58,345 nucleotides of DNA, from positions 1 to 58,345 of IMG/VR virus record IMGVR_UViG_3300003937_000384; one strand, given 5' to 3'. Position 1 is the first letter of the stretch. Every line of letters starts with the position of its first letter. A program made the position numbers and the translations under genes. This DNA is from a virus. Lineage: Duplodnaviria > Caudoviricetes. Below the pieces are notes generated by a model. The model did no database searches, was not told where the DNA came from, and saw nothing but the letters and a program-made list of their open reading frames with translations. Below are positions 1-33,745 of this stretch, in pieces.

Positions 1-156
1 CTACAGGCCAATCGACAGCAGCTTCTCCTTGCCCACGATGCGGTACTTCCAGCGCCCGCTGCGTGCATCGGGCGGGGTGAGGTAGAGGTACAGGCCGCCG
101 CCGTCGGTGATCTTCTGCGACTTGGCGCGCCTGATGGCTGCGTCGGTCAGAGGCAT
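1..156 (-). pseudogene. Truncated P4-type tyrosine integrase (arm-binding N-terminus only)
   Basis: ATG at 156 gives MPLTDAAIRRAK..DGGGLYL..RWKYRIVGKEKLLSIGL, then TAG at 1-3. This is the typical N-terminus of P4/IntA integrases, with a stop where YP normally follows. Confidence 0.75.
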
Positions 157-253
157 TGGGGGTATCGCTTCAGTGGGTGCGGTCGGATACCCCTTGATAT
201 ACCCCCACCGTCTCATGGATTGAAACGGATTGCCCCGGTCTGCTGCGGACAAT

Positions 254-294
254 AAAAAAGCCCGGAAACCCTTGTGATGCGGGGGGGCGGGCTT
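254..294 (-). terminator. Intrinsic terminator downstream of the displaced ssrA 3' fragment
   Basis: AAGCCCG (258-264) / CGGGCTT (288-294) stem; the A-tract at 254-259 is a U-tract on the minus strand. Confidence 0.55.
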
Positions 295-317
295 CTCCGG
301 TCCTTGACGAACCGTTC

Positions 318-336
318 GTTGGTTGAGGTGGGCGGA
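318..336 (-). repeat. att direct repeat (copy of the ssrA 3' end)
   Basis: GTTGGTTGAGGTGGGCGGA matches GTTGGTGGAGGTGGGCGGA at 12806-12824 at 18/19 positions. Confidence 0.88.
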
Positions 337-402
337 GCCATTTGCGCCCATTTGCAACCTATTGAAAGCAAAAGATATTTTTCTTCCAAAAGGTGTAAAT
401 TT

Positions 403-421
403 TGATGCCTCTGATGATACC
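403..421. promoter_or_regulatory. Putative integrase arm-type sites (left end)
   Basis: TGATGCC (403) and TGATACC (415) lie 12 bp apart. The same motif and spacing recur at 12706/12718 near the other end. Confidence 0.5.
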
Positions 422-465
422 CGGCATGGGGCCGAGGTGCAAAGCACAACTGCTTAGGAGCAGTT

Positions 466-1047
466 GTGCGCATTGCATCGGTGATGGTGGTGTTGACCAT
501 TTGGCTTGGAGCGTGTGGTGAGGCCGTGGCGCAGGCCGGTTCAGTTCCGCCCGCCGGAACCAAACAGGGTTGGGAGCGCCAGCATCTGGGCGACCATGTC
601 AGCGAACCCGGCGAGGCTTTACCGGACTTCCTCCGGCGCACCGGGCGAGTGCTTCATGACTACACCCGCCAGAGCGGGAACGAGGCCTGTGGCGCGATTG
701 CCAGCGACGGCCAGCGTTTTTCCCTGCGCCTCTACACAGATGGTGTGCCACACGGCTGTGCCATACGGACCAGCGAGGTGATGGAAGGTTCTGCTTTCAC
801 CGGCGAAACCATCCACAGCCATCCTTGGCAGAAGGTGCTGACGATGACACCGGCCGCCAGGGCGTGGAGCCATTTCTACAAGGACGGCAATGCCGGGGCC
901 CCGACCCTGCGCAACGACGGAGCAGTAGGGTTTAGCAGAGCCGACCGCGCTAACGGAGACGGTTGGCTGATTGCTGGCGGGCAGTTGCTGCATCTGGTCA
1001 ACGGAAAGACCGAGCGCCTTGGCCCGGTCTTCCTCTCCACGGAGTGA
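466..1047 (+). CDS. Exported protein with JAB/MPN-like (DUF4329-like) metal-binding motifs
   Basis: N-terminal signal peptide; NEACGAI ... IHSHP ... FSRAD gives an E / HxH / SxxD pattern. Confidence 0.6.
   Translation: MRIASVMVVLTIWLGACGEAVAQAGSVPPAGTKQGWERQHLGDHVSEPGEALPDFLRRTGRVLHDYTRQSGNEACGAIASDGQRFSLRLYTDGVPHGCAIRTSEVMEGSAFTGETIHSHPWQKVLTMTPAARAWSHFYKDGNAGAPTLRNDGAVGFSRADRANGDGWLIAGGQLLHLVNGKTERLGPVFLSTE
1014..1047 (+). repeat. 34-bp direct repeat, copy 1
   Basis: 31/34 identical to 1203-1236; includes the stop codon of 466..1047. Confidence 0.9.
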
Positions 1048-1061
1048 TGCAGGTCGATGGC

Positions 1062-1089
1062 TTGACAACGCCTTGAGCTGCCTTAGATT
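1062..1089 (+). promoter_or_regulatory. sigma70 promoter driving the solitary CRISPR-repeat RNA
   Basis: TTGACA (1062-1067), 16-nt spacer, TAGATT (1084-1089); predicted start ~1096. Confidence 0.7.
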
Positions 1090-1102
1090 TGGAACGTCGG
1101 CA

Positions 1103-1130
1103 GTTCACTGCCCTATGGGCAGCTTAGAAA
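1103..1130 (+). CRISPR. Solitary type I-F CRISPR repeat unit (not an array)
   Basis: GTTCACTGCCCTATGGGCAGCTTAGAAA, 28 nt. It differs from the canonical I-F repeat GTTCACTGCCGTACAGGCAGCTTAGAAA at only 3 loop positions; the CTGCC/GGCAG stem and CTTAGAAA handle are intact. Confidence 0.88.
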
Positions 1131-1159
1131 AAAGAGAAATTGCTTTGCCCGCCGATACC

Positions 1160-1194
1160 CAAAGCCCTCGCTCACGCGGGGGCTTTGCTTTTTT
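1160..1194 (+). terminator. Intrinsic terminator
   Basis: CAAAGCCCTCGC-tcac-GCGGGGGCTTTG followed by CTTTTTT. Confidence 0.85.
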
Positions 1195-1202
1195 GGCTTG
1201 GC

Positions 1203-1236
1203 GCGGCTTGGCCTGGTCTCCCTCTCCACGGAGTGA
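1203..1236 (+). repeat. 34-bp direct repeat, copy 2
   Basis: 31/34 identical to 1014-1047. Confidence 0.9.
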
Positions 1237-1248
1237 ACCAATGGCCGT

Positions 1249-2988
1249 TTACTGGCATTGGAACTCGAAGGCTGACCAGTCCGATGCGCCCACGGTTTGC
1301 CAGTAGAACGCCGAGCCATTCCCGACCACATCACAGGCGCACTCTGTTGGCCAATTGACTGGTCCGGTGCTTGGGGAACCAAATCCAGGCATTGGAGTCA
1401 GTTTCTGTTTAAGTGCGGCGACGCAGGTCCGGCGCTCTGGCGTCAATGTCTGTTCTTGAGGCCTCGCGAGGCCGCCCGAAAACGTCGCGTCATCGTTGGT
1501 ATTAACGCTCTGCGTGCAGTGAAATTGGTCAGCGAGGAACTGCGACACCGAGCAGAACACGCCCCAGCCGTAAAGCCCACCGTCGCCCCAGGAAATCCAC
1601 GATTTTCCGGTGTAGGTCGGATAGGTTCTTGCCGGAGGCGTGCAGGTGTTGGAGGTGGTAACCCAGCCACTGGATGCCGTGTAGGTGCCACTCCAGCTCT
1701 CTGAGGTGCTCGACACCGGGGACCCGGTCGCGGCCGGGCAGGACCAGGACGTGGTGCGCGTGCCGTTCTCAACGCGGTTGCGTTGTTGCCAGTGCTGACC
1801 TGCCTGCCCAGCCGGGCAACCCACGTTCTGGCTCTCTGCTGGCGAGGCGCGCGTGATTGCAACGCTGGTTGGCGGCGCAGACGTGCATGCGGGAGCACAG
1901 ATACTCGCTGCTGCCGGTAACCAGGCTGACCATGGTCCCGTCAGCGCGATTGGGCTTGCGAACGGGTCGGGGCATGAATACGTCGTAGTGCGGGTGCGGG
2001 TCTGCGGAAAAGAAGTGGCGCCACTGATGGTGAGAGTGCCTGAAGGACAAACGCCCGTTTGCGCCGCGCTTTCGCTCAACGGTAATGGCGCTGAGCAGGC
2101 GGGTGTGATGACGGGAGGGACAATAGGAAGAGTGACGGCGGGTGGCGCCGGTGGTGCGGTTGGAATTGGAGGTTGAGCGGCGATTGGCACGCATAACGCC
2201 AGCGGAGACCAGCAAGCAGGAGCAGCTACCGAATTCCAAATAAACGAACACGTTTGACCCGCAGGTGCCGTTCCTGTGGCTGGAGCCGTGGGAGCCGCTC
2301 CGCAGCCAGGAGATGGAGCAGGTGGAGTAACAGCTACGGGCGGTGGCGCCACCACCGGGGCCGGTGGTGGCGGAGCTGATGTTGGAGGGGGCGGTGGCAG
2401 TGCAACGGGTGTGAGAACTTGCGCAGACAGGCCAGTAGCGCCGCCGTAGTATGTGAACGCGAGCCGTGCTGGATTCCTGCATCGTTGAGTCGCGGCCTGG
2501 ATGTCCAATTGGGTCGGACGATGATTATTGCCGCGATTGAAGACCGATGTGTCGTCTATTTTGAGGTCATACATGCCTCCACTCGCCGCAGCAGCTAGCT
2601 TTAGGCACGCACGCGTTGGAACCGCGTGGTAAACAATCTTCAACCCTGCGTTGGGGCGGCCATCAATAGTGGCAGGCTCAAGAATAACGGGTTGCGCCCA
2701 TCGGCTCGTTAGGCCAACGCCAGAGTTCATTGAAACGGGTGGAACGCGGTCGGCAATAGCCTGAGCGGTTGTCAGTCCCGCATAGGAGCCGAGCGCTCCA
2801 TACGTCATGTCTGCATTGCGAGCGATGGTGTGAATATTCGCTTGTTCTGCGCGAACATCTGCGTTGTTTGCCGATGAATGATAGATAGCGAAAGCCGCAC
2901 CGGAAAGAAGTGTCATAGCACTCGCCGTAAACATCAGCTCGATCAATGAGATGCCACGTTGCGGATGTGGGCGGCTTGATGGCTTCAT
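1249..2988 (-). CDS. Type IV prepilin-like protein: PilS-like pilin domain, Pro-rich linker, Cys-rich adhesin-like C-terminus
   Basis: Class III signal QRG|ISLIEL followed by a hydrophobic helix and a pilin head (..VPTRACLKLA..). Then a long PPPP stretch and repeated CPxG..R..SCP..W..W..C units. Confidence 0.75.
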   Translation of the reverse strand: MKPSSRPHPQRGISLIELMFTASAMTLLSGAAFAIYHSSANNADVRAEQANIHTIARNADMTYGALGSYAGLTTAQAIADRVPPVSMNSGVGLTSRWAQPVILEPATIDGRPNAGLKIVYHAVPTRACLKLAAAASGGMYDLKIDDTSVFNRGNNHRPTQLDIQAATQRCRNPARLAFTYYGGATGLSAQVLTPVALPPPPPTSAPPPPAPVVAPPPVAVTPPAPSPGCGAAPTAPATGTAPAGQTCSFIWNSVAAPACWSPLALCVPIAAQPPIPTAPPAPPAVTLPIVPPVITPACSAPLPLSESAAQTGVCPSGTLTISGATSFPQTRTRTTTYSCPDPFASPIALTGPWSAWLPAAASICAPACTSAPPTSVAITRASPAESQNVGCPAGQAGQHWQQRNRVENGTRTTSWSCPAATGSPVSSTSESWSGTYTASSGWVTTSNTCTPPARTYPTYTGKSWISWGDGGLYGWGVFCSVSQFLADQFHCTQSVNTNDDATFSGGLARPQEQTLTPERRTCVAALKQKLTPMPGFGSPSTGPVNWPTECACDVVGNGSAFYWQTVGASDWSAFEFQCQ

Positions 2989-2990
2989 GG

Positions 2991-3320
2991 TTAGCGCTTC
3001 TTTGCGCGGGATGCTTCTCGCTCGGCTAGATGCATTCGCCCGCGCGTGCGCATCTCATTTCGTTGTTGAACGAAGGCCGGCTTTGAGATCTGCTCTCGAT
3101 ACCCAAGTAGTAGGCCAACAAGCTCAGTCTCATCCAGTGAATCAGCCCCAGCGGCGATGACCGCGCCGCCCAGGAGAATCTTGCGGTGCGCGTCTGCTTT
3201 GCGTTCGCTAGCTCTTGTCTTTGCTTTTGATCTTTGCTCGGCCAGCATCTCCCGTGCTTTCAATTTTGCGAGACGCTCAGTAGCGGCGGTGATTTGTTCT
3301 TGTATAGAGCGTGTTGCCAT
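2991..3320 (-). CDS. Mobilization accessory protein (TraD/MobS-like)
   Basis: MATRSIQEQI..ERKADAHRKILLGGAVIA motif; divergent from the relaxase across oriT. Start moved to the ATG at 3320. Confidence 0.75.
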   Translation of the reverse strand: MATRSIQEQITAATERLAKLKAREMLAEQRSKAKTRASERKADAHRKILLGGAVIAAGADSLDETELVGLLLGYREQISKPAFVQQRNEMRTRGRMHLAEREASRAKKR

Positions 3321-3530
3321 TGTTGAGTTCTCGTAATGTCCTACACCTAATGCAAACAGAAAATCGGCTATTGGCAAGTCATCGACTTGTCATATTGCAA
3401 TTCCCTGTCATCCTGAATTAGAGGGGCACAGGCGAGCGAGAGCGAGCCAGCCCCAGCGGGAAACGCGAGCGAAGCGAGCCCCGGTCTCTTGCTCGAAGCC
3501 GTCACGAATAGTGGCGGCAAGGATCAAAGC

Positions 3531-3563
3531 AAGAGCGCACTTATGGTTTCCCTGCGGGAAACC
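3531..3563 (-). promoter_or_regulatory. oriT, MOBQ type
   Basis: The minus strand reads GGTTTCCC-gca-GGGAAACC-ATAAGTGCG^CTCT: an inverted repeat plus an RSF1010/pSC101-like nic motif. Predicted nick between 3536 and 3535. Confidence 0.85.
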
Positions 3564-3674
3564 GTGCGCCGGGGCTCCGCCCCAGACCCCGGCCCGCTTC
3601 GCAGGCCGCCCCCGATGCTAGCCCCCTCGGGGGCGTCGCCAAAAACAAGAGCAGGAGCAAGGACAAAAATCGAA

Positions 3675-5396
3675 ATGGCCATTTATCACGCCACCGTCAA
3701 AGCCTTTTCGCGCGGCAAGGGTCATTCCTCTACTGCCGCTGCGGCGTATCGTGCGGGCATTGTGATTAATGACGAATTGACCGGTATCAAACACGACTAC
3801 ACAAGGCGCAGTGGCGTTGCCTCGGTTGATATGTTGGCCCCGCAAAATGCCCCCGAATGGGCGCGAGATCCGGTCGCCTGTTTCAATCGCTCGGAAATGG
3901 CCGAGACCCGGCTAAACGCCAGGACGGCGCGAGAGCTTGAAGTTGCTCTGCCTGCAGAACTGAACGAAGCGCAGCGTCGTGCGCTCGCGTGCGACTTGGG
4001 TCAGATGTTGGTTGACCGCTATCAGGTTGCGGTGCTTGTTGCAGTCCATGAGCCCGATAAGAAAGGGGATGAGCGCAATCACCATGTGCATCTCCTTATG
4101 ACGCCTCGTCAGATCGGTCCTGATGGCCTGGGTGAACGTGCATGTGCTGAATTTGATGCGCGTGGTGGCGCAGGACCGGAGGCTATCCGCATTCTTCGTG
4201 AGGCGGTGGCTGACCGTATCAATTCGCATCTGGAACGAGCACAGGTCGCTGAACGTGTTGATCATCGCAGCCTAGCTAAGCAAGCACATGCCGCCGAAGC
4301 TGATGGCTATATCGGGTTCGCAGCCATGCTGGCTCGCGAAGCCACCCAGCACGAGGGTAAGGCAGCAACCGCGATGCGTAGGAGGGGTGAAGATAGCGAG
4401 CGGGCCACGGTAAATAACCAGATCCAAAACGCCAATCGCATTGAACTGCGTGACTACCTGGAACGCTTGGAGCAAGAGGGAAGGGTGATGGCGACGCCAC
4501 GCTCCCATACGCAAGAAGCAGCTCAACGTGAGCGGCTTGCAGCTGTTGGCAAAGAAGAGCGGCAACCGCACCTCGGGCAGGTCGCGCTGGCGCCGCCACG
4601 AGCACGAAAAAGGCCAGCATCAGTAGAGCAGCGAGCTGCACGAGTGGGGTCTGCCGCATCGCGCTTTCCGCCAAGTCTCAAGCCAGTATTGATGAAGGCG
4701 GCTAGGCGTCTTCGTAGCAAGATTGCGAACAAGCAAGCAGACGAGGCCATGGCTCGTTACGACGCTGAAATAGAGCAGCTGGAGATGGAAGCGAGACGGG
4801 TTTGGCTGGAGGATATAGATGCTGCCGTTCGGCAAAGTCTTTCGACGGTCGCCAAGCTCTTTGACATGTCGAGCAGGGCGGGCGCCTACCCCCACAGGGC
4901 GTCATATCGAAACGATATGCGCGAGCTTCACAGTTCATTGAAGCAGGTGGCTCGTGACGCCACTCGATGGGAGCGCAGGCTACAAGCCGAAGTTAAGGCA
5001 AACATTTCACTCACGGAAGCCCAAATGAAATTGGTGACATGGGAGAGGAAAAATCCCAAGCCGTCGCTCTGGAGCGGTAGCAGGCGCGATTGGGCGCAGC
5101 GGCGTCGGAGTGGCGAAGAGCGCATTGAGCGGCGCAGGACGCGGCACGATGCTGCGCGTCTAGCTACAGGCCCGGAAGCACAGGTGAAGTATGCGGCGCA
5201 GGCAGCTACGAGTGTAGAAGCTTTGGATAGGCTCGCAGCATCAATGCTGAAGCGCTATCCAATCACTGCTGATACAGCACAGCCGCACAAATCGCAGTGT
5301 TCTGGAACTACCCCAACGCGCACGCTTACGGAACAACTGAACGATAGCGAGTTGGAGAAAAAGGACCAAAGAAGATGTCGCGGACCTCGCGTCTGA
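3675..5396 (+). CDS. mobA: MobA/MobL-family (MOBQ) relaxase
   Basis: MAIYHATVK, AAAAYR (catalytic Tyr), ARELEVALP, and the HUH triad HE..N-HHVHLL. Start at ATG 3675. Confidence 0.92.
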   Translation: MAIYHATVKAFSRGKGHSSTAAAAYRAGIVINDELTGIKHDYTRRSGVASVDMLAPQNAPEWARDPVACFNRSEMAETRLNARTARELEVALPAELNEAQRRALACDLGQMLVDRYQVAVLVAVHEPDKKGDERNHHVHLLMTPRQIGPDGLGERACAEFDARGGAGPEAIRILREAVADRINSHLERAQVAERVDHRSLAKQAHAAEADGYIGFAAMLAREATQHEGKAATAMRRRGEDSERATVNNQIQNANRIELRDYLERLEQEGRVMATPRSHTQEAAQRERLAAVGKEERQPHLGQVALAPPRARKRPASVEQRAARVGSAASRFPPSLKPVLMKAARRLRSKIANKQADEAMARYDAEIEQLEMEARRVWLEDIDAAVRQSLSTVAKLFDMSSRAGAYPHRASYRNDMRELHSSLKQVARDATRWERRLQAEVKANISLTEAQMKLVTWERKNPKPSLWSGSRRDWAQRRRSGEERIERRRTRHDAARLATGPEAQVKYAAQAATSVEALDRLAASMLKRYPITADTAQPHKSQCSGTTPTRTLTEQLNDSELEKKDQRRCRGPRV

Positions 5397-5402
5397 AGCT
5401 AG

Positions 5403-5439
5403 AAAAACAATGCCCCCGAATATTCTTCGGGGGGCATTG
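5403..5439. terminator. Hairpin terminator after mobA (U-tract on the minus strand)
   Basis: CAATGCCCCCGAA / TTCGGGGGGCATTG, preceded by AAAAA. Confidence 0.7.
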
Positions 5440-5470
5440 ACAGAATTGGCGTTGGCCTCATGCTGTTTTT

Positions 5471-6240
5471 TAGCGGCAGCGCGTTGATAACAGCAACGGC
5501 TGCGAGTAGGTAGAAAGCAGCTCTACACACCCAGGCATCGGCCCCAAGCAACAACATAGCCGACATCGGGAAGAGCGCAACCCCTCGCAACCCAGCTGGA
5601 ACCAATGGCTATCGCACGGAGGTCCGATTAGTTCGCGCCCGGTGACAATCCGGGGCTATCCATCTCCTACGGATAGCGGCCTTAAACCGTGGAGGAATAC
5701 GTCCACATCCGGCAGCATGGCTTCTGCGTCGCGGAGGTTCCAAGGCATGGGTTCCCTAGCTGGCCTTGGATTGTGTGCCCCGTCTCGGGTCGGCCATGTA
5801 TGCGAAGGGCAAGATTGGAGAGCGTCAGGCGACAGCCTGATCACGGGGCAAAGCCCATGGGAGAGACGCCAGTGAATGCTGGTGGCAGGACCCCAGCCCC
5901 GGCGCCATGTCAGGCGTGAACCTGCCGCAGCTGTGTATTGACAGTGATCACAGCGCCGACGATGGTCCTCTGCCTAGGCAAGAGTAGGCCGGCCCGGCAA
6001 AGGTCCCCAGGCTCGCTTATTGCGGGTTGGGGGAGACTTTGCCTCGGTCGGTCGGCGGTTAGAAGCAAAGACCGAGGCAAAACAGCGGGCCCATAGTGTC
6101 CTGAGTCAGCAGGAAGATGTGTCCTGAATCGGGGGCGGAGGTGGCCTTGTCCGTAAAGGAGCACTTGGAGTTCTACAGCAGAAAAACGGAGCGGACCGAA
6201 AATTTCCGGGCGCCGACGAATGTTTTAATGTTCGGTCAAA
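5471..6240 (+). ncRNA. Candidate large structured non-coding RNA (boundaries approximate)
   Basis: No convincing ORF; more than 15 helices including nested multiloops; G-U pairs favour the + strand; upstream TTGACA-16-CATGCT (5437-5464). Confidence 0.55.
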
Positions 6241-6246
6241 GGCACA

Positions 6247-6657
6247 TCAGATTTGACCCCAAGGAAGGAAGAAGCGTGGTCCTACCTTTAGGCCGCGAAT
6301 TCGAGCTTGCCAGTCACTGATCTGTTTTATGAAGCTATCGACGGGATGCGCCGAGTGCTTACATGCTGCTATGGAATTTAGAAGCTCATTGCTAACTTGC
6401 ATCAAGGAAATTCCGGCGCCCTTGTGCTTGAGAAGGAAGAGCTCGGATGCTATCAGGTGAAGTTCTTCACTCTTATCTGAACTGATGATCTGTGTGTTAC
6501 TGGCATCGCCCATGTAGTTGATTGATCGAATAGCTCGAAGTGCCTCGTATTTCAGCGCATTGAACTTTGAGAGCTTGGCCATCAGCAAGCCCGAGTAGTA
6601 TCCAGCGGCCGTGCCGGGAATCAATGCCATCAGGAGGTCGTAGGCGAGGCTTGTCAT
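6247..6657 (-). CDS. Hypothetical protein with N-terminal hydrophobic segment
   Basis: Clean ORF, lower GC than its neighbours, downstream of the XRE gene. Confidence 0.65.
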   Translation of the reverse strand: MTSLAYDLLMALIPGTAAGYYSGLLMAKLSKFNALKYEALRAIRSINYMGDASNTQIISSDKSEELHLIASELFLLKHKGAGISLMQVSNELLNSIAACKHSAHPVDSFIKQISDWQARIRGLKVGPRFFLPWGQI

Positions 6658-6719
6658 TAGGGTCTTCCTTGCTGGCACCTAGGCATAGCGTAGGAAGTCG
6701 CTAGGCCGTTCGGTGCGCG

Positions 6720-7079
6720 TCACTTGCTAGCGGGGGCGAGGCTTTTTAGAAGCGCCAGTGCTTCTTTCTGTTTTCGGGCATCAAGCTGTGTCAGCACCAA
6801 GATTGCCTCCGCAACCACGTCAGAGGCAGCAAGGAAGTAAGCGGCTGGGAGATCCAGAAGCTCCGCGAGCTTCTCAATGGTCTCCAGATCAGGCTTATGA
6901 AGGCCCCTCTCATACCTGCTGATGCGGGGCGCAGTGGTGTTTGGGTCATCCACTCCCATCAATAGTTCCCCTAGCTGGGCCTGAGTCCAGCCCTTGGCTG
7001 CGCGTGCGGCGCGGAGGCGTTGGCCAAGAGCAGTGGTTGTTGGTAACGGCGCGGGCATTCGGGGCAGCAAGAAGGGCAT
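6720..7079 (-). CDS. XRE-family HTH transcriptional regulator
   Basis: LGQRLRAARAAKGWTQAQLG..ISRYERGLHKPD. Confidence 0.88.
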   Translation of the reverse strand: MPFLLPRMPAPLPTTTALGQRLRAARAAKGWTQAQLGELLMGVDDPNTTAPRISRYERGLHKPDLETIEKLAELLDLPAAYFLAASDVVAEAILVLTQLDARKQKEALALLKSLAPASK

Positions 7080-7159
7080 TGACTACCCGAAGTGTGCCCG
7101 CCTAAGCTTAGCCGGTCATTTGCATTGAACGCAAATATTCGTTGGGCGAGGAGGTGGTT

Positions 7160-7639
7160 ATGGATATGAGGTGCTGGGCATTGGTGGGTCTTCTGGCGTT
7201 CACTGCTTCTGCTGACGCTATGCCCAGCCTGTCGTGCCAACTGCAGACTGGCCAGTTCAGGGTGGATGGGGGAGGGCGGCCGAAGGTATCCGCTTTCATT
7301 TGGGCCACGGGTCATGGCTCCGCGATCCCCACCGGCCCCATCCGAACCAGCATCGGCCGCATCGACTCCGTCGAAGGCCGGGACTACAAACGCGCTATCA
7401 AGCTCGATGGAAAGCCGGTTCTGCTGCCTCCCGAAGCGCATAGCGTCATTGGCTTCGGCAAGGTCTATGACTTCAAGGATGCCGTCGCTCTGGTCTATCT
7501 AGGGGAGCGTGAGGAGGACTCCTCTGCGCGGCCTAGTCAGATCGTGATCGTCATCAACAAGGCCGGGTCACTGATTGATAGCGAAGTCCTACCTGGCACT
7601 GCAACGAATCCGGGCAATCACTGCCTACTCATCGACTGA
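7160..7639 (+). CDS. Exported hypothetical protein
   Basis: GAGGAGG RBS; signal peptide ending ..TASADA. Confidence 0.7.
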   Translation: MDMRCWALVGLLAFTASADAMPSLSCQLQTGQFRVDGGGRPKVSAFIWATGHGSAIPTGPIRTSIGRIDSVEGRDYKRAIKLDGKPVLLPPEAHSVIGFGKVYDFKDAVALVYLGEREEDSSARPSQIVIVINKAGSLIDSEVLPGTATNPGNHCLLID

Positions 7640-7649
7640 AGGAACACAC

Positions 7650-7949
7650 ATGAAGAAGCTTTGGACGCTTTCCGCTACTGCGCTGCTGGTTGCTTGCTCG
7701 GGTGGTCCTGGGAGCGGCGATGTTGAGAAAGCCTTGGCCGTGTATTTCAAGGAGGCGACGGGAACGACGATGACGTTTGAGCACTTGAAGGTAGGAGAGT
7801 GCGTGCGTGGGGACAGCCCCGGCTATGCGTGCAGTGTCACCGGAACTGCGCGGTATCAGCTGGGCACTCGCACTGAGCAACAGCAGCTTGTCGGCACTTT
7901 CGTCATCGATAAGGTCGATGGCACTTGGACTGTCGTAGACCGTCGCTGA
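7650..7949 (+). CDS. Lipoprotein
   Basis: MKKLWTLSATALLVA-C lipobox. Confidence 0.75.
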   Translation: MKKLWTLSATALLVACSGGPGSGDVEKALAVYFKEATGTTMTFEHLKVGECVRGDSPGYACSVTGTARYQLGTRTEQQQLVGTFVIDKVDGTWTVVDRR

Positions 7950-7984
7950 CCCAGGTCCTTCCCAACCATCGCTAGGAAGCTCGT

Positions 7985-8521
7985 ATGTGGACCTTGTTCA
8001 AGGTAGTCCGCTGGATCATCACCGGTCTTGCACTTTGGTGGCTGTGCGGTGTGGTGTTCGAAAAGGGCACGACGGCTGAGGGTGCCGTGTTCGGGTTGAT
8101 GCTGTTCGGGCAGCTGGTCTTCTGGCCCCTTGCGCTGCTGTGGGGCTTGCCGTGGCTGTTCCGTCGCCGCGCGCCCAAACTGAAGAAGCATAGGCCTGAA
8201 GAGTTTGAGCCCACTGTTTGCCATGACCATATCGCCTTGGACCTGGGCAGGGACACTATCTGGATCCGGGAGCCCGTGAAGGGCGAGCGCTACCTGCGGC
8301 GGGCTGAAGTGCTCGCCATCCGCACTGGGGAATACAGCTACAAAGGAGTCATCACCCATCGTCTGGAAGTCCAGGTGCGGGACGTTGTTCACCCGCTCTG
8401 GCTGGTTCCTTTCGTGCGCCACTCCGACCGTTGGCTCAAGAGCACAGCTGTCAATGAGACTGAGAGGGATGAATGGTTCGCTAGGATGAAAGCTTGGCTT
8501 ACTGAAACGCGCACCATCTAA
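7985..8521 (+). CDS. Membrane protein (2 N-terminal TM segments)
   Basis: Two hydrophobic stretches followed by a soluble domain. Confidence 0.7.
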   Translation: MWTLFKVVRWIITGLALWWLCGVVFEKGTTAEGAVFGLMLFGQLVFWPLALLWGLPWLFRRRAPKLKKHRPEEFEPTVCHDHIALDLGRDTIWIREPVKGERYLRRAEVLAIRTGEYSYKGVITHRLEVQVRDVVHPLWLVPFVRHSDRWLKSTAVNETERDEWFARMKAWLTETRTI

Positions 8522-8606
8522 GCAGCCCCATTCCAGCGAATGCAGCTAGGCAGGAAAGCAGAGTGGCCCATCCTCCATGCGCGGAATGATGGGCCTATGT
8601 TGCCTC

Positions 8607-8837
8607 TTAGTCTTCGCTTTCCTCAGGCTCCAACTTGCTCAGTTCTCCCAGTCGCAATAAACCGCGCTCGATCATGCTCTGCGCACAAGCAACACAGTAT
8701 CGATCCCAGCCCCGGTCTTTTCGCACCCCTAGTCGAATGTCTCCGCGTTCGATCCTATGTTTACTGTTAGCTTGGCAGTTGTGGGCCTTCTTCGCCCTGT
8801 CTACCATTGTCGAGACGATCAAGGACTTAGTCGCCAT
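8607..8837 (-). CDS. Small Zn-finger-like protein (PARP-type Zn-finger resemblance)
   Basis: RAKKAHNCQANSKHRIERGDIRLG..WDRYCVAC; ATG overlaps the 3' end of the helicase gene. Confidence 0.65.
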   Translation of the reverse strand: MATKSLIVSTMVDRAKKAHNCQANSKHRIERGDIRLGVRKDRGWDRYCVACAQSMIERGLLRLGELSKLEPEESED

Positions 8838-10623
8838 CGAACAGCTTCCTGCAAACGCTTGCTGTAAGGGCATCGAACTGCCCCCGAATGGTGTCCAGTT
8901 CCACCTGTGACATCTCACTTCGTTCCCCTGGCTTCCGGCCGACCAAGGTGTTCGCCGCCTCGTTGAGAGTGGTGACTACCACTACGTAGTTGTCGCGACC
9001 AAGCCGTCTGTGATCCAACTCTCGCCCGCCATGCTTAATTCCTCGCTCATTGAGAATTCGTCCTGCGTGGAGTTGAATAAGCTCGTTAAGAGCGTCTCTG
9101 GCGGCCTGTCGTTTTGCTGCCTTAGGGACAGCGATGGGCTTGAGGGCTTGGGTAGTAGGGTCAAAGTCTGCAGGGATAATTCCGCTCTGCTTCAACAGGC
9201 GAATGGCGTCTTCCTCTTCCTGCTTTAGGAGGTGGATTTCCTGCATTTCCACCTCGGACTGCTCTTTGACCTCGGGCTTCCCATTGGTAGTGTCGCGAGG
9301 CGCATACTCACGGAACTCCGTGGGATCTGCTGGATCCAAGCCTTCAAGAGGAAGAAGCTGGTCAAAGAAGGATTGGTCATCTTCGCTGAACTGCTGGAAG
9401 TCTCCCCACCTGGCGGCAATGTTGCCGCCCGCATGAAAGATCACACTGCCCTGGTTTACAACGTCCCCCGGCGCATCTTGCTTGATTACGCGCATGATTC
9501 GCCCAACGAATTGGACGAATGGAGACAGGTTGGAGAACACGCTAAGGACCGCCGCTACCGACAGGAACGGATGGTCAAAACCTTCGCCAAGTTTTCTCAC
9601 CTGTACGATCACGTCCAGTTGATGATTCGCCAGCCTTTGCATGACTTGGTCATTCTTTTTACTCTCACGGGAATGCACAAAATCGGCCTTCCTTCCCCGT
9701 GCGCGATAAGCCTCCACAATCTGAATGCAATGCTCATAATTCAATGCCGAGGCGATTACCTTTAGGCGTGGCTCCCCTGTCAAGTTACGGAGCCGGTCGA
9801 GCTCCCTGAGGGACGCATCAACAATGGTATTCAGTGTTTCTTCGGACGTTACGATGCTTCTGCGGAAATCCGCGTCCTCCTCACCTAGGCGTCGGACCTC
9901 ATCTAGGGAGACTTCAACCTCCGAATCGCCTGGTCGCCTGACATAGCGTAAGGTCTTCGGATTGAGTTGGATTGCTTTGAGCTGTTTAACATAGCCCGCT
10001 CTGATCGCCTTGAAGATTGGGTATGAGTAAACGACGGGACCGCTCATCATCTGGCCATCAGCTCTAAGAGGCGTGGCGCTGAAGTTCACGACCGAGGCTG
10101 CAGGGAATTTTGCTTTCAGGGCCTCATAGGTTGCTGCAACGCTATGATGGCCCTCGTCGAAAATGATCAGGTCAAAGAAGTCGGCAGGAAGCGTTCGCAA
10201 CCACTTGTTGCCATCGCCGGAAATCTGCTGGATGTTTGTAATGGCAACGTGTGCGGCGTCAAGGTCACTTCGATTTGCATCGGTGCCTCTTATTTCCACT
10301 GGCTCTGGATAATTGGGGCCGTCCATCACATCGCAGCGTGCATAGAATAGCTTCTCGCTACTAAAGTCGAAATCAGCTGCCAGCTGCGTTGCAATCGCAA
10401 CGCCGGGAGCGATGATCAATGCTCGTTTCGATTTATACGCAAATGGAGTGAGCGTTATAGTTCCTGACTTTCCGCATCCCACGGGCAGTACTACGCTAAC
10501 TTCTCTTATGTCCGCACCGTCAGCTACATGCTGTGCTAGCGCCTCATAGGCTCCTTGTTGCGGTTCTCTGACCTTCGGATTTCCAGTAATGCGGGGTGCG
10601 ACATCTTGGAACGGGCTAGACAC
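8827..10623 (-). CDS. SF2 DEAD/DEAH-box helicase (ResIII-like)
   Basis: Q-motif REPQ, Walker A LPVGCGKS, DEGHH, SATP, LGEGFD, and motif VI QFVGRIMR. Confidence 0.9.
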   Translation of the reverse strand: MSSPFQDVAPRITGNPKVREPQQGAYEALAQHVADGADIREVSVVLPVGCGKSGTITLTPFAYKSKRALIIAPGVAIATQLAADFDFSSEKLFYARCDVMDGPNYPEPVEIRGTDANRSDLDAAHVAITNIQQISGDGNKWLRTLPADFFDLIIFDEGHHSVAATYEALKAKFPAASVVNFSATPLRADGQMMSGPVVYSYPIFKAIRAGYVKQLKAIQLNPKTLRYVRRPGDSEVEVSLDEVRRLGEEDADFRRSIVTSEETLNTIVDASLRELDRLRNLTGEPRLKVIASALNYEHCIQIVEAYRARGRKADFVHSRESKKNDQVMQRLANHQLDVIVQVRKLGEGFDHPFLSVAAVLSVFSNLSPFVQFVGRIMRVIKQDAPGDVVNQGSVIFHAGGNIAARWGDFQQFSEDDQSFFDQLLPLEGLDPADPTEFREYAPRDTTNGKPEVKEQSEVEMQEIHLLKQEEEDAIRLLKQSGIIPADFDPTTQALKPIAVPKAAKRQAARDALNELIQLHAGRILNERGIKHGGRELDHRRLGRDNYVVVVTTLNEAANTLVGRKPGERSEMSQVELDTIRGQFDALTASVCRKLFDGD

Positions 10624-11096
10624 GCTTGTTCTCCTGGATACGTATTCTGCTCATGCGAAGTTGGGCGGCGCATTATCTGTGCGCCGTATTGGTCAGCAGC
10701 GGCTGACGTGAGATGTTCATTGCTCGCGCGGGCGTAGATGTCGGCATATTTATTGGTCGTTTTCATCCCGTGCCACAATTATCATCCCGACAGATACATC
10801 TGCCGGGCTTCTTGACGCCTACTGCGAGCTTTTACTTTCCCCCTGAAATTCCCTGGCTGATGCGCCCTTCAGTCATGAGATCCTGCCTCAGGCAACCCAT
10901 CTATTCAATAGTTTGATGTCTGTCACATTTTTGGCGGGGCGCCGCGTGCCTTTCGGCAGGGCCAGACTTGGCAAGACGCGCCGGGACGGGTGGCAAAGCA
11001 GACAGCGAGGCGATAGCAAGAGTCCAGCCCCGAATCTTGGGCACCTGGAGTGGTTGATGGCGTTGCCTAATCATTGTCGCCGCGATCCCCCGGGCG

Positions 11097-12701
11097 CTAC
11101 GACGCCTTCCTCATCCGACTTGCTGGCGTCGTGGAGTGCGCGCTTTTGGCAAGAGCGACCGCTTTTCGTTCACGTGCAGCTGCATTCACCACCCTCCGCT
11201 TCGCTCTGAGTTGCGCTTGCTTGAGAGACTGCGCTGCCTCTCCAGGCTGATAGGCCGGCAGACCTTCGGGAACGGGGAGAAGCGCTACCGCGTCTGCGCG
11301 CGATTGGAGCGTGGGCACATCTACATAGGTTCCGAGCTCGCCGGGCATATGCGCCTTGTGCCCCGTAATGGCAGCGGCAATAGAGCTAAGCACCCCCGCA
11401 TAGAGAAGCCGGGTGCTCGCAGTATGTCGGAACGAGTGGAAGCCCATGCCGGGCTGCATCATGCCCAAGCCAACAAGATAGGCGCGGAACTGATCTCCGA
11501 GGGCGTCCCCGTAGCCTGCCTTCTTATGCCAAGGCAGGTGGGGAAACAGGCGCTCATGGCCCGACTGCGCTACATCTTCGACGTAAGTTAAGAAGCCCGC
11601 CTCCAACAAGCGTGGGTGGAGTGGGATGAAGCGCAAGGAGTTTGCGTTTTTCAGCTTTTGATCCCGCCGCCCCGCACGAATGTGGATTCCCCAAATGCCA
11701 TTCACCTCGGCCACATCGTCGGCATAGAGTTGCCCAAGCTCGTTGACCCGCGCCCCAGTGCCCGCTGCTAGCAGGACTCCCCAGTATCGATCAGGCCGCT
11801 CCTCTGACCAGGGAAGGAACTTCTCCATATCGAAGAGTTGGTTGATTTCCTCAATGCTGAAGGGGCGACGGGGGAGCGTGGCGATTGCGGTGGCCGAGCT
11901 CTGGCGCTTGATTCCATCGAGCGGCGAACGTGTGAGCAGCCCACCGGCTACTTGTGCATTGAGGAAGCTGGCCAGTCGGTCACGATGTTTGCCTAGAGTC
12001 CGATCAGACAGGCCCGCGATAACGAGCCCTTTGGCGCGTTGTTGCTTGACCTTGGCGATGATTTGCGCGGCGCTCAGTTCTTTGTATTCTGCCTTCTTGC
12101 GCGCATTGCTCGGCCAGTCATGAAGCCCATTTAGGAAGGCGCGCACTTGGGTCTCCCCCACTTGCGACATGAGCAGGTCGAGCCCTGCTATTTCGCGGAA
12201 GATGGTGAGCGTGTTTTCACTGTCGAGCAGATTGCCTGGCGATGTCTTAGCGTTCCTAAGGTCTTCCAGGTAGAGACCAACACGCTTTGTCAGGGTGTCC
12301 CCGGCTCCGGGCAGCGGTGAACTTTGGGCAAAGCCTGAGCTCGCGAGTCCCTTGATGGTGTCCAGCAGAGCTTTGGCGTCCTCGCGTCCATTCACCTGTA
12401 GGTCGGTCAATCTCGCGCCGTTAGGCAGCTCAATGTTCCCGGTCCAGCGGTCAATGGTTCCGGCCAACGCTCTCAGCAGGGCGTCCCGATCCTTCTCGGT
12501 CATTGGGCTACGTCTGATGCGGTCGAATGCCTGAGAGAGTGCCACAGCGGCGCTTGCCGCTGTAAGCCGCATCAGATCGATTGAAGCAGGGGGCAGGCGT
12601 CGCACCAGGTAGCGGGAGCCAATAAGAGGCTGTAGATCCGTAGGCACAAAAAAACGGACGTATAGCCCGCTCGGTCGGCGCAGGAAAAATGGCTTTGGCA
12701 C
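11097..12701 (-). CDS. int: Tyrosine integrase with DUF6538-like N-terminus
   Basis: TGARVNE, KLKN, FHSFRH, ITGH and a C-terminal Tyr; N-terminus LYVRFFVPTDLQ. Likely GTG start at 12701. Confidence 0.9.
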   Translation of the reverse strand: MPKPFFLRRPSGLYVRFFVPTDLQPLIGSRYLVRRLPPASIDLMRLTAASAAVALSQAFDRIRRSPMTEKDRDALLRALAGTIDRWTGNIELPNGARLTDLQVNGREDAKALLDTIKGLASSGFAQSSPLPGAGDTLTKRVGLYLEDLRNAKTSPGNLLDSENTLTIFREIAGLDLLMSQVGETQVRAFLNGLHDWPSNARKKAEYKELSAAQIIAKVKQQRAKGLVIAGLSDRTLGKHRDRLASFLNAQVAGGLLTRSPLDGIKRQSSATAIATLPRRPFSIEEINQLFDMEKFLPWSEERPDRYWGVLLAAGTGARVNELGQLYADDVAEVNGIWGIHIRAGRRDQKLKNANSLRFIPLHPRLLEAGFLTYVEDVAQSGHERLFPHLPWHKKAGYGDALGDQFRAYLVGLGMMQPGMGFHSFRHTASTRLLYAGVLSSIAAAITGHKAHMPGELGTYVDVPTLQSRADAVALLPVPEGLPAYQPGEAAQSLKQAQLRAKRRVVNAAARERKAVALAKSAHSTTPASRMRKAS

Positions 12702-12807
12702 GGAGTGATACCTACTTTGATACCTGCAGACAGGCTCAGTTCGTGTATCACTCCGATGCCAAAACCCTTGCAAAATCAGCCACTTAGTGATAGATTTTGC
12801 AAGCAGT

Positions 12808-13161
12808 TGGTGGAGGTGGGCGGAATTGAACCGCCGTCCGAAGGCACTCCATCCCCAGCACTACATGCTTAGCTCACCGTTGGATCTCGTCCCCGAACAG
12901 CACGGTGCGCAAAGCGCATCCGGGAACCAGCCTGTTGTGTTCTAGTGCCGGACTGACAGGCAGCCACCCAGCGCGATTCCATGATAGTGACTCTACACCG
13001 CGAGCATGGACACAAGCGGTTTCGAGGCTTAGGCCTTAAGCGGCCAGAGCGTAGTTGTCGTCGTTGGCAACTAGAGTTTTGCAGCTGGATTTACGAGGAA
13101 AGCTACCCCCTCGGCATGCGCCAGGCGACTTCACAACCCCCGTCGAAACCAATGCACCCCC
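12808..13161 (-). ncRNA. ssrA: tmRNA
   Basis: 5' GGGGGTG pairs with 3' CACCTCC-A-CCA; T-arm present; tag ORF 13036-13068 encodes ANDDNYALAA*. Confidence 0.98.
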
Positions 13162-16897: not shown

Positions 16898-17118
16898 TCT
16901 TCGTACCCCTCCAAATCGATCAGGTTTCTTCCATCTGGCGCCTTGATGAACACCGCGCCCTCCAGCCAATCGCCGCGCTTGATCTTCGAGTTGACCGCGT
17001 CGACCGTGTAGCCGGTCAGCGCCTCAAACTGCTTGAGCGTGACGAATCGGACCGGGCGCAGGTTCGCGGGGGATGCGGTCCTCGACAATCCTCGTGACGA
17101 GGATCCGTAGCTACTCAT
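16840..17118 (-). CDS. xis: Excisionase
   Basis: FEALTGYTVDAVNSKIKRGDWLEG..KAPDGRNLIDLEGYEEWV; overlaps the int start. Confidence 0.8.
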   Translation of the reverse strand: MSSYGSSSRGLSRTASPANLRPVRFVTLKQFEALTGYTVDAVNSKIKRGDWLEGAVFIKAPDGRNLIDLEGYEEWVVQGRAASGQFHKAASR

Positions 17119-33668: not shown

Positions 33669-33745
33669 TGCGGGGTAGAGCAGTCCGGCAGCTCGCGTGG
33701 CTCATAACCACGAGGTCGGTGGTTCGAATCCACCTCCCGCTACCA
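33669..33745 (+). tRNA. tRNA-Met (CAT), initiator-like
   Basis: Cloverleaf; anticodon loop CTCATAA; GGTTCGAATCC; encoded CCA; unpaired 1:72 and A11:U24. Confidence 0.92.

What the first reader, a model, noticed from the sequence alone, without database searches (positions are those of the whole stretch)
1048..1202. Self-contained solitary type I-F CRISPR repeat transcription unit on a mobilizable island: candidate RNA anti-CRISPR or crRNA mimic
Seen: a TTGACA-16-TAGATT promoter, then ~7 nt, then one 28-nt I-F repeat (1103-1130), then ~29-32 nt of unique sequence (AAAGAGAAATTGCTTTGCCCGCCGATACC...), then a strong terminator hairpin. There is no second repeat and no cas gene in the window. Known: Cas6f/Csy4 cuts at the 3' base of the CTGCC/GGCAG stem, leaving an 8-nt handle (here CTTAGAAA); I-F spacers are ~32 nt; solitary repeat units on mobile elements can act as RNA anti-CRISPRs (Racrs). 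Inference: cleavage would release handle + spacer-length segment + terminator hairpin, the geometry of a mature crRNA with the terminator replacing the 3' repeat. The RNA could either soak up host Csy subunits or guide host Cascade to a target such as a cas promoter or a rival element. The three deviations from the canonical repeat all fall in the loop and turn the G.A loop closure into C-G. The 5' GTCGGC (1096-1101) can also pair with GCCGAT (1151-1156).
Basis: partly seen in the sequence, partly recalled or inferred. Interest (0 to 1): 0.9.

Follow-up and report, generated by a model that had tools for sequence, protein, structure and literature searches.

The report
Solitary CRISPR repeat on mobile island
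A single type I-F CRISPR repeat, with a promoter-like site before it and a terminator after it, sits as an inserted cassette on a mobilizable island of Stenotrophomonas; it is most likely an RNA decoy for CRISPR proteins, which is a known kind of RNA anti-CRISPR.

Summary
Window 1103-1130 is a complete type I-F repeat. A promoter-like site (1062-1089) precedes it and a strong terminator (1160-1187) follows. There is no second repeat and no cas gene in the window.

The repeat lies on a 12.5-kb mobilizable island (337-12805) inserted in the tmRNA gene of a Stenotrophomonas. The 189-bp cassette is a discrete insertion, because a homologous island in another species has the empty site.

The loop is not a deviation. 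The same 28 bases are the repeat of a real I-F array found in a metagenome.

Diverged copies of the cassette sit on a second family of mobilizable islands. There the I-F-type hairpin directly abuts I-E-type repeat hairpins, with no spacers.

The supposed spacer varies from 20 to 31 nt and has a 2-nt indel at its seed end. Its 3' part belongs to a terminator module that also occurs without any repeat. No target was found.

The crRNA-guide reading is therefore poorly supported. A repeat-mimic decoy (Racr-like) fits best.

Weak points:
- No proof of expression.
- The promoter is not conserved in relatives.
- The carrier genomes lack cas genes.
- The 5' leader is much shorter than in RacrIF1.

Verdict: a new member of a known kind. 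The mixed-type hairpin clusters in relatives are the more novel lead.

The parts
318..336 (.). attL: copy of the 3' end of the tmRNA gene; left border of the island
   Evidence: 19-nt direct repeat with 12806-12824, 95% identical. The tmRNA gene is at 12808-13161 on the - strand.
337..12805 (.). 12.5-kb integrative mobilizable island that carries the cassette
   Evidence: att repeats. MobA/MobL relaxase 3489-5396 (E 4.5e-44), TraD-like 2991-3377, ResIII helicase 8827-10623, integrase 11097-12773.
466..1047 (+). Upstream ORF, 193 aa, function unknown; its last 34 nt are duplicated after the cassette
   Evidence: No Pfam or NCBIfam family. PHROG 16374, function unknown. Atlas features nearest DUF4329 clusters, a lead only. 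Homologues without a cassette exist in G065 and in S. geniculata.
1014..1047 (.). First copy of the 34-nt direct repeat that flanks the cassette
   Evidence: the repeat finder family D1, 91% identical copies 189 nt apart.
1048..1202 (+). The inserted cassette: promoter-like site, I-F repeat, tail, terminator
   Evidence: Absent as a block, together with one copy of the 34-nt repeat, from the homologous island of G065. Present at 93% identity in G025 and nearly identical in two IMG/VR contigs.
1062..1089 (+). Promoter-like site TTGACA-16-TAGATT
   Evidence: The criterion is not met in the closest homologue, where the -10 reads TAGATC, nor in L011, L059, L064 or L068.
1103..1130 (+). Type I-F CRISPR repeat. 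Stem 1108-1113 pairs with 1117-1122, loop 1114-1116. Expected Cas6f cut after 1122 (inferred). 8-nt handle 1123-1130.
   Evidence: Rfam CRISPR-DR4, 33.8 bits. Identical to the repeat of the I-F array in L060, which lies beside Csy3, Csy4 and Cas1. Consensus hairpin.
1131..1159 (+).
   Evidence: Length 29, 31 or about 20-23 nt in homologues. 1150-1159 are part of a terminator module found without a repeat in G073. No target found.
1160..1196 (+). Intrinsic terminator hairpin and T run
   Evidence: The same hairpin is 34 of 34 identical in a Xanthomonas citri plasmid. It is the most conserved part among homologues.
1203..1236 (.). Second copy of the 34-nt direct repeat
   Evidence: Only one copy is present at the empty site of G065.
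1249..2988 (-). Convergent downstream ORF with a PilS N-terminal domain
   Evidence: Pfam PF08805, E 4.2e-12.
12808..13161 (-). tmRNA gene, the integration site of the island
   Evidence: Rfam RF00023, 196 bits.

Best explanation
The cassette at 1048-1202 encodes a small RNA, or the 3' end of the ORF 466-1047 transcript, whose only specific feature is a faithful copy of a type I-F CRISPR repeat hairpin. I read it as a repeat-mimic RNA anti-CRISPR (Racr-like) carried by a mobilizable island.

Proposed mechanism: in a cell that has a I-F system, Cas6f would bind the hairpin, cut after 1122 and stay on the 5' product. The 3' product (handle, tail, terminator) could at most load other Csy subunits onto a non-targeting RNA. 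Either way Cas proteins are drawn away from real crRNAs while the island establishes itself.

Shown here: the repeat identity, the solitary state, the mobile-element context, the cassette-like insertion, and homologous cassettes in which I-F-type and I-E-type repeat hairpins are strung together without spacers.

Inferred, not shown: transcription, Cas6f binding and cleavage, and any effect on interference.
For: 1. Repeat identity. All 23 non-loop positions equal the Rfam I-F consensus. The whole 28-mer is identical to the repeat of a real array with 32-nt spacers beside Csy3, Csy4 and Cas1 (L060).

2. Solitary, no cas genes, on a mobilizable island. This is the published definition of SRU/Racr candidates (PMC10651486, passages and section 9).

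3. Discrete insertion. G065 has the empty site and G025 has the cassette.

4. Homologous cassettes on a second island family. Cassettes with an F-type unit, a tail and the same terminator lie on islands with MobA/MobL and a DUF6538 integrase. They occur in 3 more of 147 Stenotrophomonas species genomes (G028, G109, G123) and in 7 of 11 metagenome loci.

5. Units abut without spacers. In those relatives the F-type unit follows E-type repeat units at a gap of 3 nt or less. There are 2 to 8 hairpin units per transcript, or three tandem E+F modules. The E-type unit matches multi-copy I-E-type arrays in PLSDB: 20 records, 176 places, 18 records with at least 80% coverage, 84-93.5% identity.

6. The F-type hairpin is kept. 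48 of 48 cells pair in 8 distinct units, with U-A/C-G and G-C/A-U/G-U exchanges. A second natural I-F repeat class with the CCGCC stem exists beside Csy3, Csy4 and Cas1 (L067).

7. I-F systems occur in the genus. Cas6f was found in 12 of 147 species genomes, or 11 of 146 without the unpublished G131.
Against: - No cas genes in carriers. 0 of 4 carrier genomes (G025, G028, G109, G123), and the window, hold Cas1 or Csy3. None of the four is among the 12 Cas6f genomes, and the window has no Csy4.
- Native repeats differ. Stenotrophomonas I-F repeats differ from the SRU at 5 of 28 positions.
- Arrays of the SRU's own repeat class sit beside a divergent Cas6f, about 22% identical to the Stenotrophomonas one. 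That class was found only as solitary units in the four carriers, never as arrays, in the 147 genus genomes. In a 401-genome family sample it gave 1 match, with a mismatch.
- The promoter criterion fails in 5 of 5 homologous loci.
[quoted passage not shown] Here the predicted start leaves only about 26 nt upstream of the cut.
- Covariation is not significant: 54 of 500 shuffles reach the observed score.
- Short-range conservation is uninformative. There are 0 changes in the 28 nt between island variants that differ by about 4%, where about one change would be expected.
- 0 of 195 spacers from Stenotrophomonas I-F arrays hit the window or related loci.
Confidence: 0.5

Rival explanations
1. crRNA-like guide or regulator (Cracr/CreA-like). 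Cas6f cuts after 1122. The product with the 5' handle, the tail as a short spacer and the terminator in place of the 3' repeat loads host Csy proteins. It then represses a cas or toxin promoter, or targets a rival element.
For: - The handle region is fairly well kept across units, with 4 of its 8 positions (1124, 1125, 1128, 1129) invariant.
- Viral I-F Cracr RNAs have short pseudo-spacers, mostly 17-21 nt (preprint 10.1101/2024.10.29.618823, section 11). That is close to the 20-23 nt tails of the relatives.
- Such RNAs occur on phages and plasmids (same preprint, section 7).
Against: - There is only one repeat, whereas Cracr and CreA RNAs have a pseudo-repeat on both sides.
- The tail is 29-31 nt here, with a 2-nt indel at the PAM-proximal end between near-identical islands.
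- The PAM-proximal part is the most variable part and the distal part the most conserved.
- The distal 10 nt belong to a terminator module found without a repeat.
- No prefix of 9 nt or more with a CC PAM was found for 10 tails in 11 Stenotrophomonas I-F loci (130 kb). The best was 7-8 nt, while 200 shuffles reached 7-10.
- No protospacer in the window, phages or plasmids. The one 9-mer in L060 lies inside an ORF without a PAM.
- In relatives, E-type and F-type units abut with no room for a spacer.
Confidence: 0.12
2. A relic without function: a piece of a I-F array picked up by recombination and carried along with a terminator, not yet decayed.
For: - Carriers lack cas genes.
- The promoter is not conserved.
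- There is no significant covariation and no excess conservation at short range.
- G073 keeps the tail and terminator without a repeat.
- No expression evidence: RNA-library contigs cover the region but cannot show transcription.
Against: - The repeat is intact at all 28 positions.
- The F-type unit keeps a perfect hairpin in 8 distinct, diverged versions, and positions 1-6 are invariant.
- The cassette has spread between two unrelated island families and has been multiplied in tandem.
- A relic of an array would be expected to carry spacer remains and further repeats of the same type, not abutting repeats of two different types.
Confidence: 0.2
3. A structured RNA element with a function unrelated to Cas proteins. 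Examples: a 3' stabiliser or processing site of the upstream mRNA, or a regulatory sRNA of the island.
For: - It lies directly after an ORF on the same strand. In relatives it lies after a small basic ORF.
- The strong terminator is the best conserved part.
- RNA-library contigs run from the ORF into the cassette (weak, since contigs do not show single transcripts).
Against: This does not explain why the hairpin is letter for letter a I-F repeat, including its unpaired 5' and 3' flanks. It also does not explain why relatives combine it with units that match I-E-type arrays.
Confidence: 0.13

Closest known systems
RacrIF1 and other Racr candidates (solitary repeat units on phages and plasmids; Camara-Wilpert et al. 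2023, PMC10651486)
   Same: [quoted passage not shown] It is of type I-F, with the stem-loop that Cas6f needs intact.
   Different: - It is on an integrative mobilizable island, not a phage.
- The predicted start leaves about 26 nt upstream of the cut, against the 70-76 nt that carry the Cas7f filament in RacrIF1.
- Carrier genomes lack cas genes, whereas about 90% of SRU-carrying viruses in that study infect CRISPR-bearing hosts (section 9).
[quoted passage not shown]
- That study scanned IMG/VR and GTDB proviruses, so this unit may already be in its supplementary lists, which I could not open.
Viral crRNA-like regulators (Cracr) and host CreA/CreR (preprint 10.1101/2024.10.29.618823)
   Same: Repeat-derived small RNAs on mobile elements that act against CRISPR-Cas. 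They can be multiplexed in one transcript.
   Different: - Cracr RNAs have two pseudo-repeats around a pseudo-spacer that matches a cas or creT promoter. Arrays always address one subtype (section 7).
- Here there is one repeat, no match was found, and relatives mix two repeat types without spacers.
Genuine type I-F CRISPR arrays of the csy3-csy4-cas1 lineage (metagenome loci L060, L067)
   Same: The repeat sequence: identical to L060, and the F-type units of relatives are near the L058/L067 class. Both have a 6-bp stem with a 3-nt loop.
   Different: Those are arrays of 17 or more repeats (L060; 45 in L067) with 32-nt spacers next to cas genes. The window has one repeat, no spacer and no cas gene.

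Membership tests
Racr / solitary repeat unit (RNA anti-CRISPR) | Sequence and hairpin mimic a CRISPR repeat of a defined subtype | tested here: met
   Rfam CRISPR-DR4, 33.8 bits, 23 of 23 non-loop positions. Identical to the repeat of the I-F array in L060.
Racr / solitary repeat unit (RNA anti-CRISPR) | Solitary: no further repeat nearby and no cas genes | tested here: met
   One match in 58 kb at up to 3 mismatches. Cas1, Csy3 and Csy4 absent from the window.
Racr / solitary repeat unit (RNA anti-CRISPR) | Encoded on a mobile genetic element | tested here: met
   Island 337-12805 with att repeats, integrase and MobA/MobL relaxase. The cassette is itself an insertion.
Racr / solitary repeat unit (RNA anti-CRISPR) | Expressed as a small RNA from a nearby promoter | tested here: inconclusive
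   Promoter-like site in the window but in 0 of 5 homologous loci. Contigs of RNA libraries cover the region but cannot show transcription.
Racr / solitary repeat unit (RNA anti-CRISPR) | Bound and processed by the cognate Cas6 and inhibits interference | not testable with these tools
   Needs Cas6f binding and cleavage assays and interference assays.
Racr / solitary repeat unit (RNA anti-CRISPR) | Hosts carry the matching CRISPR-Cas subtype | tested here: inconclusive
   Cas6f in 12 of 147 genus genomes, but in 0 of 4 carriers. Native repeats differ at 5 of 28 positions.
Cracr / CreA / CreR crRNA-like regulators | Pseudo-spacer flanked by two repeat-like hairpins | tested here: not met
   No second repeat. 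The downstream hairpin is a terminator that also occurs on its own elsewhere.
Cracr / CreA / CreR crRNA-like regulators | At least 9 PAM-proximal matches to a cas or toxin promoter | tested here: not met
   10 tails against 11 Stenotrophomonas I-F loci: the best prefix was 7-8 nt, no better than shuffles. Hosts outside the genus were not tested, apart from a scan of the window and L003 tails for shared 9-mers or longer in the four metagenome array loci L058, L060, L061 and L067, which gave only chance matches.
CRISPR array or mini-array | Two or more repeats separated by spacers | tested here: not met

The most novel reading that the evidence does not exclude
The window's unit is the one-hairpin member of a family of mobile promoter-to-terminator RNA cassettes on Stenotrophomonas-type mobilizable islands. 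These cassettes string together copies of repeats from different CRISPR types (I-E/IV-A-type and I-F-type) with no spacers. That would be a multi-type RNA decoy array that disarms several Cas6-dependent systems at once when the island enters a new cell. Published Racr candidates are solitary by definition, and published Cracr arrays address a single subtype. Three literature searches found no description of such mixed clusters.
Probability: 0.4. Interest if true: 0.75.

Novelty: new member of a known kind. Interest (0 to 1): 0.55.

Why it matters
RNA anti-CRISPRs were described in 2023, mainly on phages. This case would place one on an integrative mobilizable island and show that it travels as a small cassette between island families. 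Its relatives point to decoys that combine hairpins of two CRISPR types in one transcript. That would be a compact way for a mobile element to pass recipients with different CRISPR systems, and a natural template for multi-system CRISPR inhibitors. It also offers a test of whether a bare Cas6f hairpin with a very short leader is enough to inhibit I-F immunity.

Tried and rejected
1. Duplex energies in 7 loci are no better than 1000 shuffled tails each (P 0.08-0.54). Dropped.

2. Protospacer searches. Nothing in the window beyond an 11-mer. In phages only 17-nt chance matches. In plasmids only 18-21-nt chance matches. The first plasmid search matched only the terminator, and the first phage search found nothing.

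3. Cas-promoter targeting: no support. The 9-mer in L060 is inside an ORF.

4. Spacers of Stenotrophomonas I-F arrays against the island: 0 of 195 hit. Only the array parts held in the fetched loci were used.

5. RNA evidence. I laid four RNA-library runs of 24 listed. All are assembled contigs. One run has a single 12.7-kb contig at depth 140, which may be DNA. In one run a contig ends at 1194 and the next starts at 1198. In another run of the same study the break is at 1147-1150. One run has no cover over 780-1224. None of this shows or excludes a transcript.

6. Exact repeat in collections. In viral contigs only the same two contigs appear.

7. Family-level pattern search: 1 of 401 genomes, with a mismatch, not followed up.

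8. Covariance model R1 in the genus. 75 of 147 genomes had a match at E <= 0.01. Of the eight best non-training hits that I read, only G123 holds the unit. G073 holds the tail and terminator only. The rest are REP-like hairpins or unrelated stretches before a terminator. Lower hits were not read.

9. Rfam gave no CRISPR-DR hit for the E-type units, nor for the F-type unit of L011. The small GTTCCCT/AGGGA hairpin unit matched no array in PLSDB. I therefore call only the full E-type and F-type units CRISPR-like.

10. Function of neighbours. The small basic ORF and the island ORFs have no informative family. The ORF 466-1047 has only a language-model lead to DUF4329.

11. A literature search for Csy4 loop tolerance found nothing usable. 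What I say about Cas6f recognition of the stem and of G20 is recalled, not checked.

Supplements of PMC10651486, which may list this very unit, were not requested because supplements are closed.
Full report
WHAT IS THERE

The window is an IMG/VR provirus record of 58,345 bases.
- A promoter-like TTGACA-16-TAGATT at 1062-1089.
- A 28-nt repeat at 1103-1130. It is unique in the window at up to 3 mismatches, and no shuffle gave a match.
- 29 nt of other sequence.
- A 12-pair terminator hairpin at 1160-1187 with a T run.

Rfam's I-F repeat family CRISPR-DR4 aligns to 1103-1130 end to end at 33.8 bits (E 1.2e-4, gathering score 35). All 23 non-loop positions equal the consensus. Six-frame searches of the window find no Cas1, Csy3 or Csy4. 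Pfam on 30 ORFs finds no cas gene.

CONTEXT

A tmRNA gene lies at 12808-13161 on the minus strand. Its 3' end is repeated at 318-336. Between the two copies lie the following:
- an integrase (11097-12773);
- a ResIII helicase;
- an HTH protein;
- a MobA/MobL relaxase (3489-5396);
- a TraD-like protein;
- a PilS_N-domain ORF (1249-2988, minus strand);
- an unknown ORF (466-1047).

This is a 12.5-kb integrative mobilizable island. To its left a second integrase begins (1-447). To the right of the tmRNA gene lies a P22-like prophage, which is probably why the record was called a provirus.

The host genus is Stenotrophomonas. The only homologue of ORF 466-1047 in the species-genome collection is in S. 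geniculata. A genome of that genus, G025, holds the cassette region at 93% identity.

THE CASSETTE IS AN INSERTION

A 34-nt direct repeat (1014-1047 and 1203-1236) brackets the unit. The homologous island of G065 has the ORF end followed directly by the sequence that follows 1236 in the window. It has one copy of the 34-mer and nothing in between. So 189 bp, made up of the cassette and one repeat copy, were inserted between two convergent genes.

THE LOOP IS NOT A DEVIATION

A degenerate pattern scan of metagenome contigs returned 11 loci.

One of them, L060 (42% G+C), is a true array. It has at least 17 exact copies of the window's 28-mer and 32-nt spacers, and it is preceded by Csy3, Csy4 and Cas1.

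Three others (L058, L061, L067) are arrays of a sister repeat class with a CCGCC/GGCGG stem. L067 lies beside Csy3, Csy4 and Cas1, and L058 beside a I-F Cas2-3. The Cas6f proteins of L060 and L067 are 33% identical to each other and about 22% identical to a Stenotrophomonas Cas6f.

Native Stenotrophomonas arrays were examined in 10 of 10 loci downstream of cas6f; I cite the nine that are not from the unpublished G131. They use a repeat that differs from the window's at 5 of 28 positions but shares the CTGCC/GGCAG stem.

RELATIVES

A DNA search of 147 Stenotrophomonas species genomes found 8 with a match:
- G025 matched at full length.
- G028 and G109 matched exactly from the first base of the repeat to the terminator, at 77% and 74% identity.
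- G065 matched the ORF end only.
- The other four matched the terminator region only.

A covariance model built on these added G123. Its many weaker hits were REP-like hairpins or unrelated stretches before terminators where I looked.

In G028 and G109 the F-type unit is the last of about eight closely packed hairpin units. Four of them look like I-E repeats. In G123 and in metagenome locus L059 one E-type unit precedes the F-type unit. L064 has a single F-type unit, like the window, and a promoter region visibly homologous to the window's. L065, L066 and L068 have three tandem modules of E-type unit, F-type unit and a 36-44-nt linker.

The gap between the E-type and F-type units is 3 nt or less.

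The E-type unit of L011 matches multi-copy arrays in PLSDB records of Escherichia, Salmonella, Edwardsiella, Ralstonia and others. There are 20 records and 176 places, 18 records have at least 80% coverage, and identity is 84-93.5%. Rfam, however, gave no CRISPR-DR hit for the E-type units. The F-type units of L068 reach only 20-23.6 bits. The small GTTCCCT/AGGGA hairpin matched no array.

All these cassettes lie on integrative elements. G028, G109 and L059 have a MobA/MobL relaxase with a DUF6538-type integrase, next to dnaX in G028. G123 and L068 have integrases. No cas gene was seen. The cassette therefore occurs on at least two unrelated island families.

IS THE TAIL A SPACER?

The evidence says no:
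- Its length is 29 nt in the window, 31 nt in L002, L003 and G025, and about 20-23 nt in L010, L011, L031 and L059.
- The 2-nt indel between near-identical islands lies at positions 3-4 of the supposed spacer, where a I-F seed would be (also seen in three RNA-library runs).
- Across classes the repeat-proximal part is the most variable and the distal part the most conserved.
- The distal 10 nt, with the terminator and some 20 nt beyond, occur in G073 without any repeat (query 171-233 at 92%; read). The terminator alone is 34 of 34 identical in a Xanthomonas citri plasmid.
- No target was found in the window, in phages or in plasmids.
- For 10 tails searched against 11 Stenotrophomonas I-F loci, requiring a CC PAM, the best prefix was 7-8 nt. 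200 shuffled tails reached 7-10 nt.

HOW IT MOST LIKELY WORKS

The published Racr, RacrIF1, is a solitary I-F repeat on a prophage. Cas6f binds and cuts it. The 70-76-nt product upstream of the cut carries Cas6f and a Cas7f filament. The stem-loop is essential and the handle dispensable, and a product with only the 5' handle does not inhibit (PMC10651486, passages read; section 9).

The window's unit shares the defining sequence features, so I read it as a Racr-like decoy. One difference matters. From the predicted start, only about 26 nt lie upstream of the cut. That is enough for Cas6f, which I recall stays on its product, but not for a Cas7f filament. A filament could form only if transcripts also come from ORF 466-1047.

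In the multi-unit relatives, 30-200 nt precede the F-type unit. Strings of abutting repeat hairpins of two types make sense as decoys. They make no sense as guides.

The alternative class is viral crRNA-like regulators, whose pseudo-spacers of mostly 17-21 nt match cas or creT promoters. They need two pseudo-repeats, and their arrays address a single subtype (preprint 10.1101/2024.10.29.618823: abstract and sections 7, 9, 10 and 11). Those features were tested here and not met.

WHAT SPEAKS AGAINST THE DECOY READING

- None of the four carrier genomes has Cas1, Csy3 or Cas6f. With Cas6f in 12 of 147 genus genomes, 0 of 4 is what chance would give, so this neither supports nor refutes.
- The repeat class of the cassette belongs to a I-F lineage not seen as arrays in the genus or in a 401-genome family sample.
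- The promoter criterion is met only in the window. It fails in G025, where the -10 reads TAGATC, and in L011, L059, L064 and L068. The terminator criterion is met in G025, L059 and L068, but not in L011 or L064.
- The hairpin pairs in 48 of 48 cells of 8 distinct units, but 54 of 500 shuffles reach the covariation score.
- Between island variants about 4% apart, the repeat has 0 changes where about one is expected.
- RNA-library contigs cover the cassette but cannot show transcription.
- 0 of 195 genus I-F spacers match the island.

COMPARISON AND NOVELTY

As a solitary I-F repeat on a mobile element, this is a new member of a known kind. The Racr study scanned IMG/VR and GTDB proviruses with SRUFinder. 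This unit may therefore already be in its supplementary lists, which I could not open.

What I did not find in print are clusters that join repeat mimics of different CRISPR types without spacers. That study's search excluded units associated with other repeats. The searches were: listings and abstracts only, apart from the two papers read.

VERDICT

My confidence in the decoy reading is 0.5. Interest is 0.55.

Noticed in passing
L010 1340-1590 and L011 1290-1585 (genomes G028, G109); L031 (G123); L059; L065, L066, L068: Clusters of 2 to 8 closely packed hairpin units that copy I-E-type and I-F-type CRISPR repeats without spacers. In L065, L066 and L068 they form three tandem E+F modules. They lie on integrative mobilizable elements without cas genes.
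   Followed up: partly
L010 1111-1287, L011 1058-1234, L031 1680-1799 (-), L064 1437-1625 (-): A small, very basic ORF of 39-62 aa (start MDxATRRAAxxAADKLLKAAGYD...) lies directly upstream of the hairpin cluster in four loci. It has no Pfam or PHROG family. It could be a co-transcribed partner of the RNA.
   Followed up: partly
L033 (G073:C18, about 62251-62330, - strand): The tail and terminator of the cassette occur without any repeat unit, overlapping the stop codon of a convergent ORF. This genome does have Cas6f.
   Followed up: partly
L060 1-3400; L067 365-5883: I-F loci with gene order csy3-csy4-cas1-array, repeats with a 6-bp stem and 3-nt loop, and a divergent Cas6f (51-55 bits on the Csy4 model, against about 200 bits for Stenotrophomonas Cas6f).
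   Followed up: partly
window 1-447 and 318-336: A second integrase gene (Arm-DNA-bind_3 domain) starts left of the att copy. This indicates tandem islands at the tmRNA gene.
   Followed up: no
window 15728-58345: P22-like prophage: integrase 15728-16969, portal 41831-44506, capsid 45787-46896, and a tRNA gene at 33669-33742.
   Followed up: no
window 1249-2988 (-): ORF with a PilS_N domain. Strains differ by 9-nt insertions near 1629-1636. A 125-nt stretch (2969-3093) is replaced by 155 other letters in four runs.
   Followed up: no
window 466-1047: Unknown ORF. It matches PHROG 16374 (function unknown), and its language-model features are nearest to DUF4329/JAB-like clusters (0.93). This is a lead only.
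   Followed up: partly
L010 700-1000, L011 700-950, L059 about 5690-5760: A conserved G+C-rich stretch with long hairpins upstream of the small basic ORF. It has no Rfam hit. It could be an oriT or a structured RNA.
   Followed up: no
L032, L034, L038 (genomes G125, G130, G113): REP/SMAG-like hairpins repeated before terminators. They score 34-45 bits with the cassette model and are false positives.
   Followed up: yes
L068 7514-12529: A TIR-domain protein and a 1165-aa helicase with a PLD domain lie just downstream of the triple hairpin module. Together they look like a defence gene pair on the same integrative element.
   Followed up: no
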